A stretch of DNA of 50,809 nt from a phage. The translations under genes were made by a program, and so were the position numbers. The stretch's first letter is position 1; every line of letters starts with the position of its first letter. Positions 2,234-30,918 of this stretch are shown here, piece by piece. The DNA lies in sequence record NC_136442.1; one strand, given 5' to 3'. A model generated the notes under the pieces. It did no database searches, was not told where the DNA came from, and worked only from the letters and a program-made list of their open reading frames with translations.

Positions 2234-2896
2234 ATGCACTTGCCTAATGGTTCTCAAATTTTCATCGGCGTTAATATGGGTGATCCGATTCAGGCTACGG
2301 CTATTTCAAATGCTGATGATCCTGTTTTTACTACTGACAATACTCAAAATATTGAGAAGGGCGCTTATGTTCTTATTGAAACATCTTCCTGGGGAAAACT
2401 TGTTAGTCGAGTCCTTCGAGTAAAGGAAGTAACTAGCAATCAAAGTGTTACTCTTGAGGGTGTAAGCACGAAAGACACCAATGTGTTTCCTGCTGGTTCT
2501 AATACAGCAACCTTCCGAGAAGTAAAATCATGGGTAGAGATTCCTTGCGTACAGGATCTTGCGCAGGACGGCGGCGAGCAACAGTATTACACTTATCAGT
2601 GTTTGGCTGACGACCAGGAGCAGCAGTTACCGACCTATAAGAGCGCCGTTTCTCTTACCTACACTTTCGCGCATGAATATGATAATCCGATTTATCCGAT
2701 CTTACGCGAGGCTGAGGAATCCGGCGACGTAACCGCTTTGCGTATGTACGTTCCGAAAGCTAAAGAGATGCGTTGCTGGGCTGGCGTATTGTCTTTTAAT
2801 GACATTCCGCAAACCACTATGAACGAAATGGAAACTGTTTCCCTTTCCGTATCTCTGAAAGGTCGATTCACGTTCTTACCTTCTGACGTTAAGTAA
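2234..2896 (+). CDS. major tail protein
   Basis: Strong RBS AAGGAGGA, 220 aa, followed by strong terminator, immediately upstream of the G/GT chaperone and tape measure. Confidence 0.7.
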   Translation: MHLPNGSQIFIGVNMGDPIQATAISNADDPVFTTDNTQNIEKGAYVLIETSSWGKLVSRVLRVKEVTSNQSVTLEGVSTKDTNVFPAGSNTATFREVKSWVEIPCVQDLAQDGGEQQYYTYQCLADDQEQQLPTYKSAVSLTYTFAHEYDNPIYPILREAEESGDVTALRMYVPKAKEMRCWAGVLSFNDIPQTTMNEMETVSLSVSLKGRFTFLPSDVK

Positions 2897-2901
2897 AACA
2901 A

Positions 2902-2922
2902 GGGGCGTTGCGCCCCTTTTTT
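2902..2922. terminator. bidirectional intrinsic terminator after major tail gene
   Basis: GGGGCGTTGCGCCCC hairpin flanked by A-run upstream and T-run downstream. Confidence 0.8.
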
Positions 2923-2962
2923 CATTCCTGTAAAATCAATCTATCAAATAAATTAATTCCAC

Positions 2963-2981
2963 TTTTAACAAAAAGTGCTAT
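2963..2981 (-). promoter_or_regulatory. 20-nt family motif in reverse orientation (TTTTAACAAAAAGTGCTAT) abutting the RBS of the tail chaperone gene
   Basis: Motif read directly; followed immediately by AAGGAG and ATG 2996. Confidence 0.6.
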
Positions 2982-2995
2982 AAGGAGATCTTGAG

Positions 2996-3313
2996 ATGGC
3001 AAAGATGAAACTAACGTTAGGCCCACTGCCTGATTTTAAACTGCCTGTTTCTTTCGTGCTTCCAAATGGTGATGAGCAAGTTATTGTTTTCACTGTGCGC
3101 CACAAGAAGGCAAGCGAGATTCACGAACGATACACGGCAGAAAAGCCGATGAGCGACGTAGAAATGATCACCTTCCTTGCTTCCGGTTGGGATCTGGAAG
3201 ATGAATTTAACGAGGAAAACGTTGCTAAATTGCTGGATTATTACCCTTCTGCGTCATTATCGCTGACTGGTCATTATATGAAAGCACTTGCGGGGCAGCG
3301 GGTAAAAAACTAA
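2996..3313 (+). CDS. tail assembly chaperone G
   Basis: 105-aa ORF between major tail and tape measure genes, ending in a slippery heptamer. Confidence 0.75.
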   Translation: MAKMKLTLGPLPDFKLPVSFVLPNGDEQVIVFTVRHKKASEIHERYTAEKPMSDVEMITFLASGWDLEDEFNEENVAKLLDYYPSASLSLTGHYMKALAGQRVKN

Positions 3314-3630
3314 AGCGGGCGGTTTACCTGTTTTACCTCAAGCCGCCAACTGACGCACAATTAGAGGCCGTCGGCCTATCCCGTTCAGACTACGAAGGGG
3401 AGGAGCCGCCGGAGGTAATTTTTGATGAATCAATGTTTCAATCTTGGGATCTGTTTTGCGCTATGCAGACGCAATGGAGATCGACTAGCGGCAGCGTGTA
3501 TGGGTTCGACTATAACGTTTTGCCTATGCTTTTTGACATTTACAAGATTGATGATCGGGAGATGGCGCTAAATGATTTGCGCATCATGGAACAAAAGGCG
3601 CTAGAAATGATTCATTCAAACAAAACATAA
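2996..3630 (+). CDS. tail assembly chaperone G-T fusion produced by -1 frameshift at 3304-3310
   Basis: -1 frame (KKLKRAVYLF...MFQSWDLF...) contiguous with listed ORF 3433..3630; conserved G/GT arrangement upstream of tape measure. Confidence 0.65.
3304..3310 (+). other. programmed -1 ribosomal frameshift site (slippery heptamer A AAA AAC)
   Basis: X XXY YYZ heptamer at the end of G; the -1 frame is open from 3304 to 3630 with no stop. Confidence 0.7.
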
Positions 3631-3650
3631 GCGCCGCGAGGCGCTTTTTT
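3629..3650 (+). terminator. intrinsic terminator / attenuator after GT
   Basis: AAGCGCC-GCGA-GGCGCTT hairpin plus TTTTTT. Confidence 0.65.
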
Positions 3651-3669
3651 AATATCTGGAGGTTTTAAA

Positions 3670-6351
3670 ATGGCTGAAAAATACGCTGGCCTAACGCTAG
3701 GCGTTGACGTGTCGCAGGTCAACAATGCTGTTAAATCATTGCAGCAATTCAAGAAGGCAAACGACGACGCAAAAAAAAGCGTTAATGAATTTGTTGATTC
3801 TGAGGTTGTGGCCCGACAGCAAGCAAAACAGCTTGCAGAAGAACTGGCGCGCCAGAAAGCAGAATTTAAGAAAATCCAGGAGTCAATTGATCCCACCGCA
3901 TCAAAGATGGATAAGCTGAGAAAGGCAGCGACACAGCTTGATGCGCTATGGAAAAAGGGCGTTGTTCCTGATCAGACTTTTTTTGAGCTTGGGGCAATTC
4001 TTGAGACGCAGCAAAACAAGCTGATCGCAACCAAAAAAGCGATGACAGAGGAAGGCCGCGCGGCGCTTGAGGAATCAAAGAACAAGGCGCGTGCAGCGGA
4101 AGAGGCTAAAAAATTCGTCCAGGCTTTGCGTGAACAGGAAGAAGCAGCAGGAAAAAGCAAGTCTGAATTGCTGGAAATGAAAGCGGCACAGCTTGGAGTT
4201 AGCCAGGAGGCAGCACCTTACATCGCAAGGATGAAAGAGCAGGAAAAGCAGATCCAGAAACTTGGTATTTCTACAGGCCAATACAAACAAGCAATGCAGC
4301 AATTGCCAATGCAGATCACAGACGTGGTGACTTCACTTGCTTCTGGTATGCCCGTTTGGTTGGTCGCAGTCCAGCAGGGTGGACAGATCAAGGATTCTTT
4401 TGGTGGTGCATCCAATGCTTTAAAAGCGTTGCTATCTTTCCTGAATCCGGTAAACGTGGCGTTTGGTTTGCTTTCCGGCACGCTGGCAATTGCTGCATAT
4501 AATGCCCACAAAGCACAGACAGAGCTTGAGGCAATTAAAAAAACCGTTCAGGAAACAACTGGCTTGAGTGGTGAGTTTGCCGAAAAGATTGCTATAGGAA
4601 TCCAGGAGCTTTCCGACAAGACAGGCGAAAGCGCCGAAGATCTGGCAAAGGCTTACATAACAACGAAAGACGGCGCGAGCGAGGCGATTAAAAAACTGGT
4701 TGACGTTGGAATGACTTATGATGACGCAAAAAAGAAAGTCAACGAGTACAAGGGCGCGTCTAGCTTTGTCAGCTTGAATAACGAAATTGCAAACCACAAA
4801 AACAAAGTCCTTGAGCTGGGCGAGTCGTGGTATGAAGTTTTGAAAGCTAAGCGTGATTACGCTTCCCCGTCCGGCGGCCTGTTAGGTAAAGAGCTTGGAT
4901 ATGTTAATCCTATGCTTAAGTTTGCACTTAACACTTATGAAGACATTGGAAAGGTCGTAAAAGATGCGAATAAGGACATGGCGGAGCGAGCGGAGCGAAT
5001 CGACAAAGAAAACCTGTCATTAAACAGAGTGAGAGCGGCGCAAGAGGCTTTAAACAAAGCCATTGAGGATCAGAAGGGCGTGGCGCGTTCGGCTGATGAA
5101 GAACTGAAAAAGCGCGCGGCTGAAAACGTGGAGTTCAGACGCAAAGAGCTTGAGGAGATCAAGAAGCAGGAGCAGAAAAAGAAAGAGGCTAAAGGGGGAA
5201 TAGTTCGCGGCCCTACTGAGCAGCTTGATAAAGAGTTGTACGTTTTAAAAGCTCAACTGGAAACTCTTAAAGAGCATCGCACTGTTAACGATGTTATTTC
5301 TCGCCAGCGTAAATCTTTATGGAGCATCGAAAAGCAGATCGAGATCCTGGAGAATGCGCAGAGCAAGCGTAAATTGACCGGAGCGGAACAGGCGCTACTA
5401 AGCGAGCAAAAAGCCGTTCTTGAAATGGCAAGACAAAAAGCGGAGCTAGGGGATCAGATTGTTTTGCAGGAGCGCAAAAACAAACTGGAGCAAGATAGTC
5501 TTAAGTTTATCCGTGAAACGGAGGCGGCTATTGATGCGATTGGCCTTAAGCAACTTGGCTACACTGAAAAGCAGATCGAGCGTGAGCTAGAGTTACGCAA
5601 GCTGCGCACCGACTACGAGGCGCAAGGCGGAAGCGTTAGCGACGAAGTTTTTCAGCAAATGGAGACGAAACTTAAGCTGTATTACCAGGCACAAGACGAG
5701 GCGCAAGGCAACTGGTTAGCCGGAGCAAAGAACGCATGGGAGCTATTCGCGGAAGATGCAAACAATGCCTATGGCAATGTTCAGCAGATTGCAAGCGAGG
5801 CGTTAAACGGCCTTACAAACCAATTAGCGAATTTTATCGCTACTGGCAAGGCAAACTTTAAAGACTTCTCGACGGCTATCATCAAAATGATTATTCAGAT
5901 GATCACGAAAATGGTTGTCTTTAATGCGTTATCTGGCCTGATGGGTGGTCAAACCTGGACGATGGGGAGCTTGCTTAAGAATATTGGCGGATTTGCTGGC
6001 GGTGGATACACTGGCGACGGCGGGAAGTATGAGCCAGCCGGAATTGTTCATAAGGGTGAATTTGTCATGACGAAGGAGGCAACGCAGCGTATCGGAGTAG
6101 GCAACTTGTACCGCATGATGCGAGGCTATGCTAACGGCGGCGTTGTTGGTGGTTCCGGCTATACTGGCGGTGGCACTGTCACTGGTGGAGCACCTCAATT
6201 TAACATCGGTGGGATTGATGTTAGCATCAATAACGGCAATGATCCGAAGGGTATCGAAACTGGTGTTAAGATGATCTTTACTGATATGATTAGACGTTCC
6301 TGTATGCAGGGCGGGGAGGTTTACGAATTTGTTATGAGCAAGCGAGGTTGA
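3670..6351 (+). CDS. tail tape measure protein
   Basis: 893 aa, long coiled-coil-rich ORF with glycine-rich C-terminus, directly after G/GT. Confidence 0.85.
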   Translation: MAEKYAGLTLGVDVSQVNNAVKSLQQFKKANDDAKKSVNEFVDSEVVARQQAKQLAEELARQKAEFKKIQESIDPTASKMDKLRKAATQLDALWKKGVVPDQTFFELGAILETQQNKLIATKKAMTEEGRAALEESKNKARAAEEAKKFVQALREQEEAAGKSKSELLEMKAAQLGVSQEAAPYIARMKEQEKQIQKLGISTGQYKQAMQQLPMQITDVVTSLASGMPVWLVAVQQGGQIKDSFGGASNALKALLSFLNPVNVAFGLLSGTLAIAAYNAHKAQTELEAIKKTVQETTGLSGEFAEKIAIGIQELSDKTGESAEDLAKAYITTKDGASEAIKKLVDVGMTYDDAKKKVNEYKGASSFVSLNNEIANHKNKVLELGESWYEVLKAKRDYASPSGGLLGKELGYVNPMLKFALNTYEDIGKVVKDANKDMAERAERIDKENLSLNRVRAAQEALNKAIEDQKGVARSADEELKKRAAENVEFRRKELEEIKKQEQKKKEAKGGIVRGPTEQLDKELYVLKAQLETLKEHRTVNDVISRQRKSLWSIEKQIEILENAQSKRKLTGAEQALLSEQKAVLEMARQKAELGDQIVLQERKNKLEQDSLKFIRETEAAIDAIGLKQLGYTEKQIERELELRKLRTDYEAQGGSVSDEVFQQMETKLKLYYQAQDEAQGNWLAGAKNAWELFAEDANNAYGNVQQIASEALNGLTNQLANFIATGKANFKDFSTAIIKMIIQMITKMVVFNALSGLMGGQTWTMGSLLKNIGGFAGGGYTGDGGKYEPAGIVHKGEFVMTKEATQRIGVGNLYRMMRGYANGGVVGGSGYTGGGTVTGGAPQFNIGGIDVSINNGNDPKGIETGVKMIFTDMIRRSCMQGGEVYEFVMSKRG

Positions 6352-29932: not shown

Positions 29933-29976
29933 ATTATGCCAGGTTTTTACACCTGGCTTTTAACAAAAAGTGCTAT
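29933..29976 (-). promoter_or_regulatory. motif-type promoter cassette (motif, hairpin CCAGGTGTAAAAACCTGG, CATAAT)
   Basis: Read on minus strand. Confidence 0.6.
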
Positions 29977-30689
29977 TTTGAGTTTGACTCAAAGACGGCG
30001 CGAGCAAATCCGCGCGGAGTGAGGGAGCGGATCATCTTTGTGCGCGATGACTTACCGCCAGTTTTGGCCCAGCCTGGATTATCTTTGTCTTCCTCTTTCG
30101 GCAGGATTAAAGCGCGCGGAGGAATAACAAAGCCGTTGCCAGTCCAGAGGCACGTTTTCTTAAAATAGCGATCCCGTGCCGGAATAATATCAGGGAAGTC
30201 GGGATGTTTATCATCTTCCGGCAGATAGCCAGCGTAATCGCACGGATGGAACGTATAATCAGGCTTACGCCATAACGTTGACAACTTGCCAACCGGATTT
30301 TCGATCATGTAAGGAACACCGAAATAATCAGCTATATCAGCCGCAATTCTGCAAGTGTCGGCGGCCTCATCCTGGAATGATGGATTCTCAAGGCGTTTTT
30401 TGGCCCAATGGCGAGATCCGCTATTTGCAAGGTCGGTGCATGGTGGGAAGGCCATAATAAAATCAGGATTGCCCCACTCATTATTGATTGCCTTAACATA
30501 AAAAGCATCATCAATCCAGACGTTAACGTATTCGATATTCTCATGCTGTATGCGCACTGACTGGTAATCACCGTGATCGCCGCCGTCAGCATTAAAGCAA
30601 ATGCACTTATAGCCATTATCAGCCCAATCTTTAACGGCTTTACCAGATCCATCAAATAGGGAGAATATTAAACCTTTATACATCGTCAT
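29973..30689 (-). CDS. putative DNA (cytosine-5)-methyltransferase-like protein
   Basis: LFDGSG (motif I-like), PPC (motif IV-like), ENPVG (motif VI-like) in canonical order; alternative start at 30683. Confidence 0.45.
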   Translation of the reverse strand: MTMYKGLIFSLFDGSGKAVKDWADNGYKCICFNADGGDHGDYQSVRIQHENIEYVNVWIDDAFYVKAINNEWGNPDFIMAFPPCTDLANSGSRHWAKKRLENPSFQDEAADTCRIAADIADYFGVPYMIENPVGKLSTLWRKPDYTFHPCDYAGYLPEDDKHPDFPDIIPARDRYFKKTCLWTGNGFVIPPRALILPKEEDKDNPGWAKTGGKSSRTKMIRSLTPRGFARAVFESNSK

Positions 30690-30693
30690 TACC

Positions 30694-30918
30694 TCAAAAC
30701 GGAAAACAGCGCGCACAACCAGGATCGAAATCGCATCCACAATCATTAACAATCATAGTGGGATCTGCAAATATTGCGCTTGACTCAAGATCCATATCCA
30801 TATCACCTAAAGCCTCATCAAGAGTCTTAATTTTATATGCCACTTCAAGCGCCGCCTCTTTATTTAGTCCGGCATCTTCTGCCATTTGAAGGCGCTCAAA
30901 AAAACCATCTTGACTCAT
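30694..30918 (-). CDS. hypothetical acidic protein with C-terminal CGCDFDPGCARC motif
   Basis: 74-aa ORF, TGA/ATG coupling with upstream mini-gene. Confidence 0.5.
   Translation of the reverse strand: MSQDGFFERLQMAEDAGLNKEAALEVAYKIKTLDEALGDMDMDLESSAIFADPTMIVNDCGCDFDPGCARCFPF

What the first reader, a model, noticed from the sequence alone, without database searches (positions are those of the whole stretch)
3304..3630. Programmed -1 frameshift producing the G-T tail chaperone
The tail chaperone ORF ends ...GTA AAA AAC TAA. The heptamer A AAA AAC (3304-3310) is a classical slippery site, and the -1 frame is open from there through listed ORF 3433..3630 with no stop. The conserved G/GT arrangement sits immediately upstream of the tape measure gene. 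The GGGG at 3292-3295 upstream and the hairpin at 3629-3650 are possible stimulators.
Basis: partly seen in the sequence, partly recalled or inferred. Interest (0 to 1): 0.45.

Follow-up and report, generated by a model that had tools for sequence, protein, structure and literature searches.

The report
Known tail-chaperone frameshift, T1-like phage
This is the usual ribosomal -1 frameshift by which long-tailed phages make a short and a long form of their tail-assembly chaperone, here in a T1-like coliphage; the site is real and strongly conserved, but it is already known and annotated in phage T1.

Summary
ORF 2996-3313 (105 aa, Pfam Phage_TAC_4) ends GTA AAA AAC TAA. The in-phase heptamer A_AAA_AAC lies at 3304-3310. 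The -1 frame is open from 3229 to 3630 and has no ATG, GTG or TTG before ATG 3433.

The window is a Warwickvirus (Drexlerviridae, the T1-like phages). Among 92 distinct related G/T regions, 83 keep A_AAA_AAC directly against the G stop codon, with a -1 ORF of at least 95 codons. Rarer relatives carry other classical slip motifs at the same place (G_GGA_AAC, A_AAG).

The 41 codons between the junction and ATG 3433 evolve as coding sequence in the -1 frame. The Pfam DUF1799 match starts 19 residues upstream of that Met, which has no usable Shine-Dalgarno sequence. So the T part is made as a G-T fusion of 211 aa.

The T1 GenBank record already annotates this frameshift product, and a paper on a T1-like phage mentions it. 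The closest Warwickvirus records still list two separate ORFs.

GGGG 3292-3295 is not conserved. The hairpin at 3629-3646 looks like a terminator and lies about 320 nt downstream. A better candidate is a hairpin at 3318-3347, 7 nt after the heptamer. There is no experimental proof for this phage. The finding is ordinary and of low interest.

The parts
2234..2896 (+). Major tail (tail tube) protein gene, the upstream neighbour
   Evidence: Pfam Phage_tail_3, E 1e-63. Annotated as major tail protein in relatives.
2900..2918 (+). Terminator-like hairpin plus T-run between the tube gene and G (context)
   Evidence: 8-bp stem, 6 GC pairs, followed by TTTTTCATT.
2982..2987 (+). Shine-Dalgarno sequence AAGGAG of G, 8 nt before ATG 2996
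   Evidence: Read from the sequence.
2996..3313 (+). G: short tail assembly (tape measure) chaperone, 105 aa, 0 frame
   Evidence: Pfam Phage_TAC_4, E 2e-29, residues 1-104. PHROG 17368/569. Annotated as tape measure chaperone in relatives.
3304..3310 (+). Slippery heptamer A_AAA_AAC, in phase
   Evidence: It is the only in-phase X_XXY_YYZ in G. It is present with a -1 ORF of at least 95 codons in 84 of 92 distinct related regions, directly against the stop codon in 83 of them.
3311..3313 (+). G stop codon TAA, directly against the heptamer
   Evidence: The contact is conserved, with TAA or TGA, in relatives down to 34% G identity.
3318..3347 (+). Candidate stimulatory hairpin: 8-bp stem 3318-3325 / 3340-3347, 14-nt loop, 7-nt spacer after the heptamer
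   Evidence: MFE -13.2 kcal/mol. Only 1% of synonymous recodings fold as well, and 20 of 23 distinct relatives are at 5% or less. No compensatory covariation, and the hairpin is lost in 3 lineages. Inferred, not proven.
3310..3630 (+). T segment, read in the -1 frame after the slip. The GT fusion is join(2996..3310,3310..3630), 211 aa
   Evidence: The frame is open. Pfam DUF1799 matches fusion residues 128-206. PHROG 17368 positions 108-211 follow on directly from G at positions 1-107. Codon-position entropy shows coding in the -1 frame.
3433..3435 (+). Internal Met codon, used as a start codon in most GenBank records of close relatives; probably not a real start
   Evidence: No SD-like motif 4-12 nt upstream in any relative. 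The domain and the conserved protein sequence extend upstream of it.
3629..3646 (+). Terminator-like hairpin plus T-run after the T stop; not a frameshift stimulator
   Evidence: 7-bp stem, 5 GC pairs, followed by TTTTTAAT. The equivalent element is annotated as a rho-independent terminator in T1.
3670..6351 (+). Tape measure protein gene, the downstream neighbour
   Evidence: Pfam TMP_2, E 2e-35, and Tape_meas_lam_C, E 2e-22.

Best explanation
Most ribosomes translating the chaperone gene G (2996-3313) terminate at TAA 3311 and make the 105-aa chaperone. A small fraction slip back one base on A_AAA_AAC (3304-3310). They then continue in the -1 frame from 3310 to the stop at 3628-3630 and make a 211-aa G-T fusion.

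By analogy with lambda gpG/gpGT, the G part of both forms coats the tape measure protein (3670-6351). The T part (DUF1799) recruits the tail tube protein (2234-2896), so that the tube polymerises around the tape measure. Both chaperones then leave the tail.

The slip site is intrinsically weak in E. coli, which suits a low GT:G ratio. The hairpin at 3318-3347, 7 nt downstream, and the adjoining stop codon may tune that ratio.

Shown here: the sequence anatomy, its conservation, the coding signature of the linker and the family assignments. Inferred: the frameshift itself, its efficiency, the role of the hairpin and the binding partners.
For: (1) Anatomy. In-phase A_AAA_AAC sits directly against the stop codon. 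The -1 frame is open for 108 codons from the heptamer onward and has no start codon before 3433.

(2) Gene order. Tail tube, G, T, tape measure.

(3) Conservation. 83 of 92 distinct related regions, down to 34% G identity, keep A_AAA_AAC plus stop with a -1 ORF of at least 95 codons. One has G_GGA_AAC plus stop. Three have the tetramer A_AAG. One has A_AAA_AAC plus one codon plus stop. The -1 frame upstream of the heptamer closes at variable distances (7-169 nt), so only the part after the heptamer is conserved.

(4) Coding signature. The linker between the junction and Met 3433 has mean entropy 0.42/0.34/1.10 at codon positions 1/2/3 of the -1 frame. The region after the Met has 0.49/0.24/1.05. 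No conserved start codon lies in the linker.

(5) Domain extent. The DUF1799 match begins at fusion residue 128, whereas Met 3433 is residue 147. PHROG 17368 (213 positions) matches G at 1-107 and T at 108-211.

(6) Translation signals. No SD at functional spacing lies before ATG 3433 in any relative, whereas G and the tape measure gene have AAGGAG and GGAGG.

(7) Prior annotation. The T1 record AY216660 annotates a two-piece CDS, 'tape measure chaperone, frameshift product', at the orthologous site, which has the same heptamer. [quoted passage not shown]

(8) Motif strength. A_AA.A_AA.C is frameshift-prone but of low efficiency in E. coli and is used in a proven IS case (PMC4066793; PMC5009743).

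(9) Hairpin. It is more stable than 99% of synonymous recodings.
Against: - There are no protein-level data for this phage, and none that I found for any Drexlerviridae member. The evidence is comparative only.
- A conserved Met codon at 3433 leaves room for some independent initiation.
- There is no detectable sequence similarity to lambda gpG or gpT (hhalign probability under 1%). The model of the T part has low confidence (pLDDT 65), and its fold search returned only close relatives. The proposed binding partners therefore rest on analogy.
- The hairpin shows no compensatory covariation and is absent in three lineages.
Confidence: 0.9

Rival explanations
1. Two independent genes. T is translated on its own from ATG 3433 as a 65-aa protein, as annotated in most GenBank records of the closest relatives, and no fusion is made.
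For: ATG 3433 is conserved in all 43 distinct Drexlerviridae sequences aligned. The records for Poky, vB_EcoS-95, JLBYU16 and PeterMerian annotate a separate ORF of 198 nt, 65 codons plus the stop.
Against: - The 41 codons upstream of the ATG are conserved as protein and show third-position variation in the -1 frame, although that frame has no start codon.
- The DUF1799 match starts 19 residues upstream of the Met.
- No SD lies 4-12 nt upstream in any relative.
- The Met is conserved as an ordinary internal residue of the domain.
- Gene callers elsewhere extend the -1 ORF to 123-136 aa, which shows that the annotated starts are arbitrary.
Confidence: 0.04
2. Transcriptional slippage. RNA polymerase adds one A in the A6 run, producing a minority of A7 mRNAs that encode the same fusion protein in a single frame.
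For: The slip site contains a homopolymeric A6 run. Some relatives have A7 (GAAAAAAAC). An insertion of one A would yield exactly the same fusion protein.
Against: - Six A residues is shorter than the runs known to support productive slippage by bacterial RNA polymerase (about 8-9 or more; general knowledge, reviewed in PMC5009743).
- Relatives that keep the same arrangement use G_GGA_AAC or GCA_AAG, which have no long homopolymer but are classical ribosomal slip motifs.
- The motif is always in the X_XXY_YYZ phase, which matters for ribosomes and not for polymerase.
Confidence: 0.04
3. Artefact or decay. A single G-T gene has been broken by a sequencing error or a recent mutation in the A-run.
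For: Homopolymer miscalls do occur in this very run. Three related contigs have A5 instead of A6.
Against: 83 distinct sequences from independent isolates and metagenomes share A6 plus C plus stop with the same frame relationship. No relative has G and T in a single frame.
Confidence: 0.01

Closest known systems
Phage T1 tape measure chaperone pair (AY216660, CPTT1_038/039), and T1-like phages such as Citrobacter phage Stevie
   Same: Orthologous genes: 56% G identity, the same Pfam families and the same family, Drexlerviridae. The heptamer plus stop, A_AAA_AAC TAA, is identical. The T frame has the same length, the same terminator-like hairpin follows T, and the same downstream hairpin is present. 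The frameshift product is annotated in the T1 record and mentioned for Stevie.
   Different: A different subfamily and genus (Tempevirinae, Warwickvirus). In the window the inner part of the downstream hairpin is lost (CAG changed to CTC), so the hairpin is weaker (-13.2 against -15.9 kcal/mol). The closest Warwickvirus records do not annotate the fusion.
Lambda gpG/gpGT (slip site G_GGA_AAG; Levin 1993; Xu, Hendrix and Duda 2004, 2013, 2014, as summarised in PMC5009743)
   Same: The same position between the major tail and tape measure genes. Two overlapping ORFs, with a -1 slip on a heptamer near the end of G. The T ORF has no translation start of its own. A low-efficiency shift sets the G:GT ratio.
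   Different: No detectable sequence similarity for G or T, and different Pfam families (Phage_TAC_4 and DUF1799 here). The heptamer differs (A_AAA_AAC, weak in E. coli). In lambda the slip site lies about 6 codons before the G stop; here it touches the stop.
IS1 insA-insB' frameshift at A_AAA_AAC
   Same: The same heptamer, used for -1 frameshifting by E. coli ribosomes. PMC4066793 lists an IS cluster with this motif as a proven case of low efficiency with no established stimulator. The identification of that cluster as IS1 is from my own knowledge.
   Different: Unrelated proteins with an unrelated function (a transposase fusion).
E. coli dnaX gamma/tau frameshift (A_AAA_AAG, with an upstream SD-like element and a downstream hairpin)
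   Same: A -1 slip on an A-rich heptamer with a hairpin a few nucleotides downstream.
   Different: dnaX uses the highly efficient AAG codon and a conserved SD-like element (PMC5009743). Here the last codon is AAC and the upstream GGGG is not conserved. In dnaX the shift truncates the protein; here it extends it.

Membership tests
Tail assembly chaperone G/GT programmed frameshift of long-tailed phages (as defined by Xu et al. 2004) | Two ORFs lie between the major tail (tube) gene and the tape measure gene | tested here: met
   Tube gene 2234-2896, G 2996-3313, T frame to 3630, tape measure gene 3670-6351.
Tail assembly chaperone G/GT programmed frameshift of long-tailed phages (as defined by Xu et al. 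2004) | The second ORF overlaps the end of the first in the -1 (or +1) frame and lacks its own start codon and SD | tested here: met
   The -1 frame is open from 3229. The first start codon is at 3433, with no SD at functional spacing in any relative. Conserved coding sequence lies upstream of it.
Tail assembly chaperone G/GT programmed frameshift of long-tailed phages (as defined by Xu et al. 2004) | A canonical slippery sequence, in phase, lies within the overlap | tested here: met
   A_AAA_AAC at 3304-3310 is the only in-phase heptamer in G.
Tail assembly chaperone G/GT programmed frameshift of long-tailed phages (as defined by Xu et al. 2004) | The arrangement is conserved among diverged relatives | tested here: met
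   88 of 92 distinct regions have a recognised slip motif at the end of G and a -1 ORF of at least 95 codons.
Tail assembly chaperone G/GT programmed frameshift of long-tailed phages (as defined by Xu et al. 2004) | The fusion protein is actually produced at a low, fixed ratio and is needed for tail assembly | not testable with these tools
   This needs a western blot or mass spectrometry of infected cells, a reporter assay and genetics.
Pfam Phage_TAC_4 (PF08748) tail assembly chaperones | Score above the curated gathering threshold over the full domain | tested here: met
   102.7 bits against a cut-off of 21.1; residues 1-104 match profile positions 1-123 of 124.
Pfam DUF1799 (PF08809), the T part | Score above the curated gathering threshold over the full domain | tested here: met
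   45.3 bits against a cut-off of 26; fusion residues 128-206 match profile positions 3-80 of 80.
Lambda gpG / gpT protein families (sequence homology) | Detectable sequence or profile similarity to lambda G and T | tested here: not met
   hhalign probability 0.1% for G and 0.2% for T, using shallow profiles. This is a positional and functional analogue. Homology was neither shown nor excluded.
dnaX-type stimulation by an upstream SD-like element | A conserved SD-like sequence lies about 6-17 nt upstream of the motif | tested here: not met
   GGGG 3292-3295 changes to AGGG, TGGT and CGGA in relatives, following synonymous variation.
-1 frameshift with a downstream stimulatory RNA structure | A stable structure lies 5-9 nt after the heptamer and is conserved beyond what the coding sequence requires | tested here: inconclusive
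   The hairpin at 3318-3347 has a 7-nt spacer. It is more stable than 99% of synonymous recodings, and 20 of 23 relatives are at 5% or less. Synonymous variation is reduced in codons 1-13 (H3 0.85 against 1.0-1.3). However, there is no compensatory covariation, the z-score against dinucleotide shuffles is only -1.1, and three lineages lack it.

The most novel reading that the evidence does not exclude
The hairpin at 3318-3347, together with the stop codon directly against the heptamer, forms a family-specific stimulatory module. It raises the otherwise very weak A_AAA_AAC slip in E. coli to the GT:G ratio needed for tail assembly. Lineages that lost the hairpin (L022, L052, L054) or switched to A_AAG (L053-56) have compensated in other ways. 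A minor variant of this reading is that a third product, T alone, starting at ATG 3433, is also made.
Probability: 0.3. Interest if true: 0.25.

Novelty: already known. Interest (0 to 1): 0.12.

Why it matters
The main value is correct annotation. The closest Warwickvirus and other Tempevirinae records list G and a truncated 65-aa 'hypothetical protein' (or only G), and RefSeq and PHROG label both as 'tail length tape measure protein'. The correct description is a chaperone plus a 211-aa frameshift product, join(2996..3310,3310..3630). It adds nothing new to the biology of frameshifting. [quoted passage not shown]

Tried and rejected
- **Upstream GGGG as a stimulator or second slip site** (in-phase G_GGG tetramer at 3292). 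Rejected as a conserved element, because it varies with synonymous changes in relatives.
- **Hairpin 3629-3646 as a stimulator.** Rejected. It is about 320 nt downstream, terminator-like, and annotated as a terminator in T1.
- **Covariation test of the hairpin at 3318-3347.** No compensatory changes were found: 80% of cells are paired, but the covariation score is no better than shuffles. The synonymous-recoding test gave the only positive signal.
- **Rfam scan of 2850-3720.** Nothing at the slip site, and only sub-threshold sRNA-like hits over the terminator at 2889-2973.
- **Sequence link to lambda G and T by hhalign.** None found.
- **Solved structures.** No relative in the PDB.
- **Large protein search with the fusion.** Only 3 hits, all T-frame ORFs of 123-136 aa. 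It was of little use beyond showing that gene callers choose arbitrary starts.
- **AlphaFold2 model of the T part from 4 sequences.** pLDDT 64.9. The Foldseek search of BFVD returned only Drexlerviridae 'tape measure chaperone' entries and no fold-level link to lambda T.
- **Other AAAAAAC copies in the window as further frameshift sites.** None qualifies.

Full report
**What is in the sequence**

The window around the finding reads ...GCG GGG CAG CGG GTA AAA AAC TAA AGC GGG CGG....

- ORF 2996-3313 encodes 105 aa ending ...AGQRVKN*. It has a strong Shine-Dalgarno sequence, AAGGAG at 2982-2987.
- In the phase of that ORF, A_AAA_AAC occupies 3304-3310. It is the only in-phase X_XXY_YYZ heptamer in the gene.
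- The stop codon TAA (3311-3313) follows the heptamer directly.
- The -1 frame is open from 3229 to its stop at 3628-3630, and its first ATG, GTG or TTG is ATG 3433.
- The +1 frame closes 13 codons after the G stop.

The bare heptamer is not rarer than chance: there are 28 copies in the window against 22.6 expected. However, no other copy combines the correct phase in a long ORF, a nearby 0-frame stop and a long open -1 frame.

**What the genes are**

- The ORF product matches Pfam Phage_TAC_4 (tail assembly chaperone) over its full length, E 2e-29.
- The -1 frame product matches DUF1799 over fusion residues 128-206.
- Upstream lie a tail terminator protein gene and the tail tube gene (Phage_tail_3).
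- Downstream is an 893-aa tape measure protein (TMP_2 plus Tape_meas_lam_C).
- A single PHROG profile of 213 positions (phrog_17368) matches G at positions 1-107 and the T part at 108-211. That family was therefore built from contiguous G-T products.

The window is a T1-like phage. It is 97.7% identical over 4.2 kb to Escherichia phages vB_EcoD_Poky and vB_EcoS-95 (Drexlerviridae, Tempevirinae, Warwickvirus). Over 2996-3669 it is 99.7% identical to PeterMerian.

**Comparative test of the frameshift**

I collected 110 related loci from IMG/VR and GenBank, which give 92 distinct G/T regions including the window's own.

| Configuration at the end of G | Distinct regions |
|---|---|
| A_AAA_AAC directly against the stop (TAA or TGA), -1 ORF of at least 95 codons | 83 |
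| G_GGA_AAC plus stop | 1 |
| Tetramer A_AAG (GCA_AAG GTC TAA) | 3 |
| A_AAA_AAC plus one codon plus stop | 1 |
| A_AAA_AAC plus stop, but -1 ORF truncated | 1 |
| A5 instead of A6; two of the three have further frame breaks | 3 |

The first group reaches down to 34% G identity. The A5 cases are most likely homopolymer miscalls. Upstream of the heptamer the -1 frame closes at variable distances (7-169 nt), so only the part after the heptamer is conserved.

In 43 distinct Drexlerviridae sequences, the 41 codons between the junction and Met 3433 have mean entropies of 0.42, 0.34 and 1.10 at -1 frame codon positions 1, 2 and 3. The region after the Met gives 0.49, 0.24 and 1.05, which is practically the same. 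This stretch is therefore protein-coding in the -1 frame, yet it has no conserved start codon. The only candidates are sporadic Leu TTG or Met codons in some lineages, and the window has none.

The DUF1799 match starts 19 residues upstream of Met 3433, which is fusion residue 147. No relative has an SD-like motif 4-12 nt before that Met. In the window, GGAGG lies 17 nt away and forms part of a conserved Glu-Val.

Together these results leave ribosomal frameshifting from G as the only economical way to express the T part.

**Mechanism**

The slip is a -1 shift on A_AAA_AAC, followed by reading from 3310 (CTA AAG CGG...). The product is join(2996..3310,3310..3630), 211 aa.

Residue 105 depends on the timing of the slip:
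- Asn, if both tRNAs slip after AAC has been decoded.
- Lys, if peptidyl-tRNA-Lys slips while the A site is empty.

The searches used the Lys version. This does not affect any result.

In E. coli, A_AA.A_AA.C is frameshift-prone but weak. It is much weaker than A_AAA_AAG, yet it is used in a proven IS case (PMC4066793; PMC5009743). A weak site fits the low GT:G ratio known for lambda, about 1:30, where G coats the tape measure protein and the T domain recruits the tail tube protein (PMC5009743). The roles of G and T in this phage are inferred by analogy. Neither part shows sequence similarity to lambda G or T. A low-confidence model of T (pLDDT 65) found only close relatives.

**Stimulators**

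- GGGG 3292-3295 lies in Ala-Gly-Gln codons that vary synonymously in relatives (GCA GGG, GCT GGT, GCC GGA).
- The hairpin at 3629-3646 plus its T-run is about 320 nt downstream. It looks like an intrinsic terminator, and the T1 record annotates it as one.

A better candidate lies 7 nt after the heptamer. An 8-bp stem pairs 3318-3325 (GGCGGUUU) with 3340-3347 (AAGCCGCC), at -13.2 kcal/mol. Most relatives have the same stem extended by an inner helix, at -15 to -20 kcal/mol.

Evidence for this hairpin:
- When the encoded peptide is kept and codons are resampled from this phage's usage, only 1% of recodings fold as well as the window sequence. In 20 of 23 distinct relatives the figure is 5% or less.
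- Synonymous variability is lower in codons 1-13 after the junction (0.85 against 1.0-1.3 bits).

Evidence against it:
- There are no compensatory double changes.
- The z-score against dinucleotide shuffles is only -1.1.
- Three lineages have lost it (L022, L052, L054).
- The sequences are phylogenetically related, so the counts are not independent.

I rate the hairpin as a plausible but unproven stimulator. The strictly conserved contact between the stop codon and the heptamer may also contribute, or it may only reflect the conserved C-terminus of G.

**Rival explanations**

- Independent initiation at ATG 3433, as annotated in Poky, vB_EcoS-95, JLBYU16 and PeterMerian. The linker's coding signature, the extent of the domain and the missing SD all contradict it.
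- Transcriptional slippage on A6. This is unlikely because the run is short, and because relatives with G_GGA_AAC or A_AAG keep the arrangement without a homopolymer.
- A sequencing artefact. This is excluded by 83 concordant independent sequences.

**Comparison with what is known**

This is the conserved G/GT tail-chaperone frameshift of long-tailed phages (Levin 1993; Xu, Hendrix and Duda 2004; reviewed in PMC5009743). For this particular protein family it is already on record:
- The updated T1 GenBank entry AY216660 carries a two-piece CDS, 'tape measure chaperone, frameshift product', at the orthologous site, which has the identical A_AAA_AAC TAA.

The closest Warwickvirus and other Tempevirinae records checked do not annotate the fusion. 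They list two ORFs, or only G (swan01, haarsle), and RefSeq labels both ORFs 'tail length tape measure protein'. The practical result is therefore a correction to the annotation, not a discovery.

**Verdict**

- Observation: confirmed.
- Interpretation: supported, except for the two proposed stimulators and the suggestion of virion mass spectrometry.
- Novelty: already known.
- Interest: low, 0.12.
- Confidence that a -1 ribosomal frameshift at 3304-3310 produces a G-T fusion: about 0.9. The remaining doubt is the lack of any protein-level evidence.

Noticed in passing
window 2900-2918 and 3629-3646: Terminator-like GC hairpins with T-runs bracket the G/T pair. One follows the tail tube gene and one lies between the T stop and the tape measure gene. 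The T1 record annotates the second as a rho-independent terminator. They may step down transcription along the tail operon.
   Followed up: partly
L010:1808-1822; L026:1804-1815 (same contig as L072); L069 (45,806-bp contig, the same length as the Citrobacter phage HCF1 record): Three related contigs read GTAAAAACTAA, with A5 instead of A6, which puts T in the +1 frame relative to G. L026 and L069 have additional frame breaks, so these are probably homopolymer miscalls and not a different recoding mode.
   Followed up: partly
L027:785-794; L053, L055 and L056 (end of G); L074 (end of G): Natural swaps of the slip motif occur at the same position: G_GGA_AAC TAA in L027, GCA_AAG GTC TAA (tetramer A_AAG) in L053/55/56, and A_AAA_AAC TCA TAG in L074. 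All have a -1 ORF of at least 100 codons.
   Followed up: partly
window 3318-3347: A hairpin lies 7 nt downstream of the heptamer. It is far more stable than synonymous recodings of the same peptide and is conserved in most Drexlerviridae. In the window its inner helix is broken by a Gln-to-Leu change (CAG to CTC).
   Followed up: yes
window 3422-3571 (+): A 49-codon 0-frame ORF has an internal ATG at 3425, 9 nt after GGAGG 3411-3415. It lies inside the T coding region in another frame and looks like a chance ORF. Its conservation was not tested.
   Followed up: no
window 30395-30401 (-), ORFs 29973-30752 (-) and 30332-30655 (-): This is the only other AAAAAAC copy with a long upstream ORF and a long -1 frame. 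Here the -1 frame is the real 259-aa gene and the 0 frame is a shadow ORF, so it is not a frameshift candidate.
   Followed up: yes
window 2889-2973 (-): A sub-threshold Rfam match to the Salmonella sRNA STnc50 (33.8 bits against a gathering score of 55, E 9e-4) overlaps the intergenic terminator between the tube gene and G. It is probably driven by the terminator hairpin.
   Followed up: no
RefSeq records NC_048132 and NC_048202; PHROGs 17368, 569 and 680: The chaperone ORFs G and T are labelled 'tail length tape measure protein' in RefSeq and PHROG annotation. This misnomer spreads to new genomes. Several records (swan01, haarsle) omit the T ORF altogether.
   Followed up: partly
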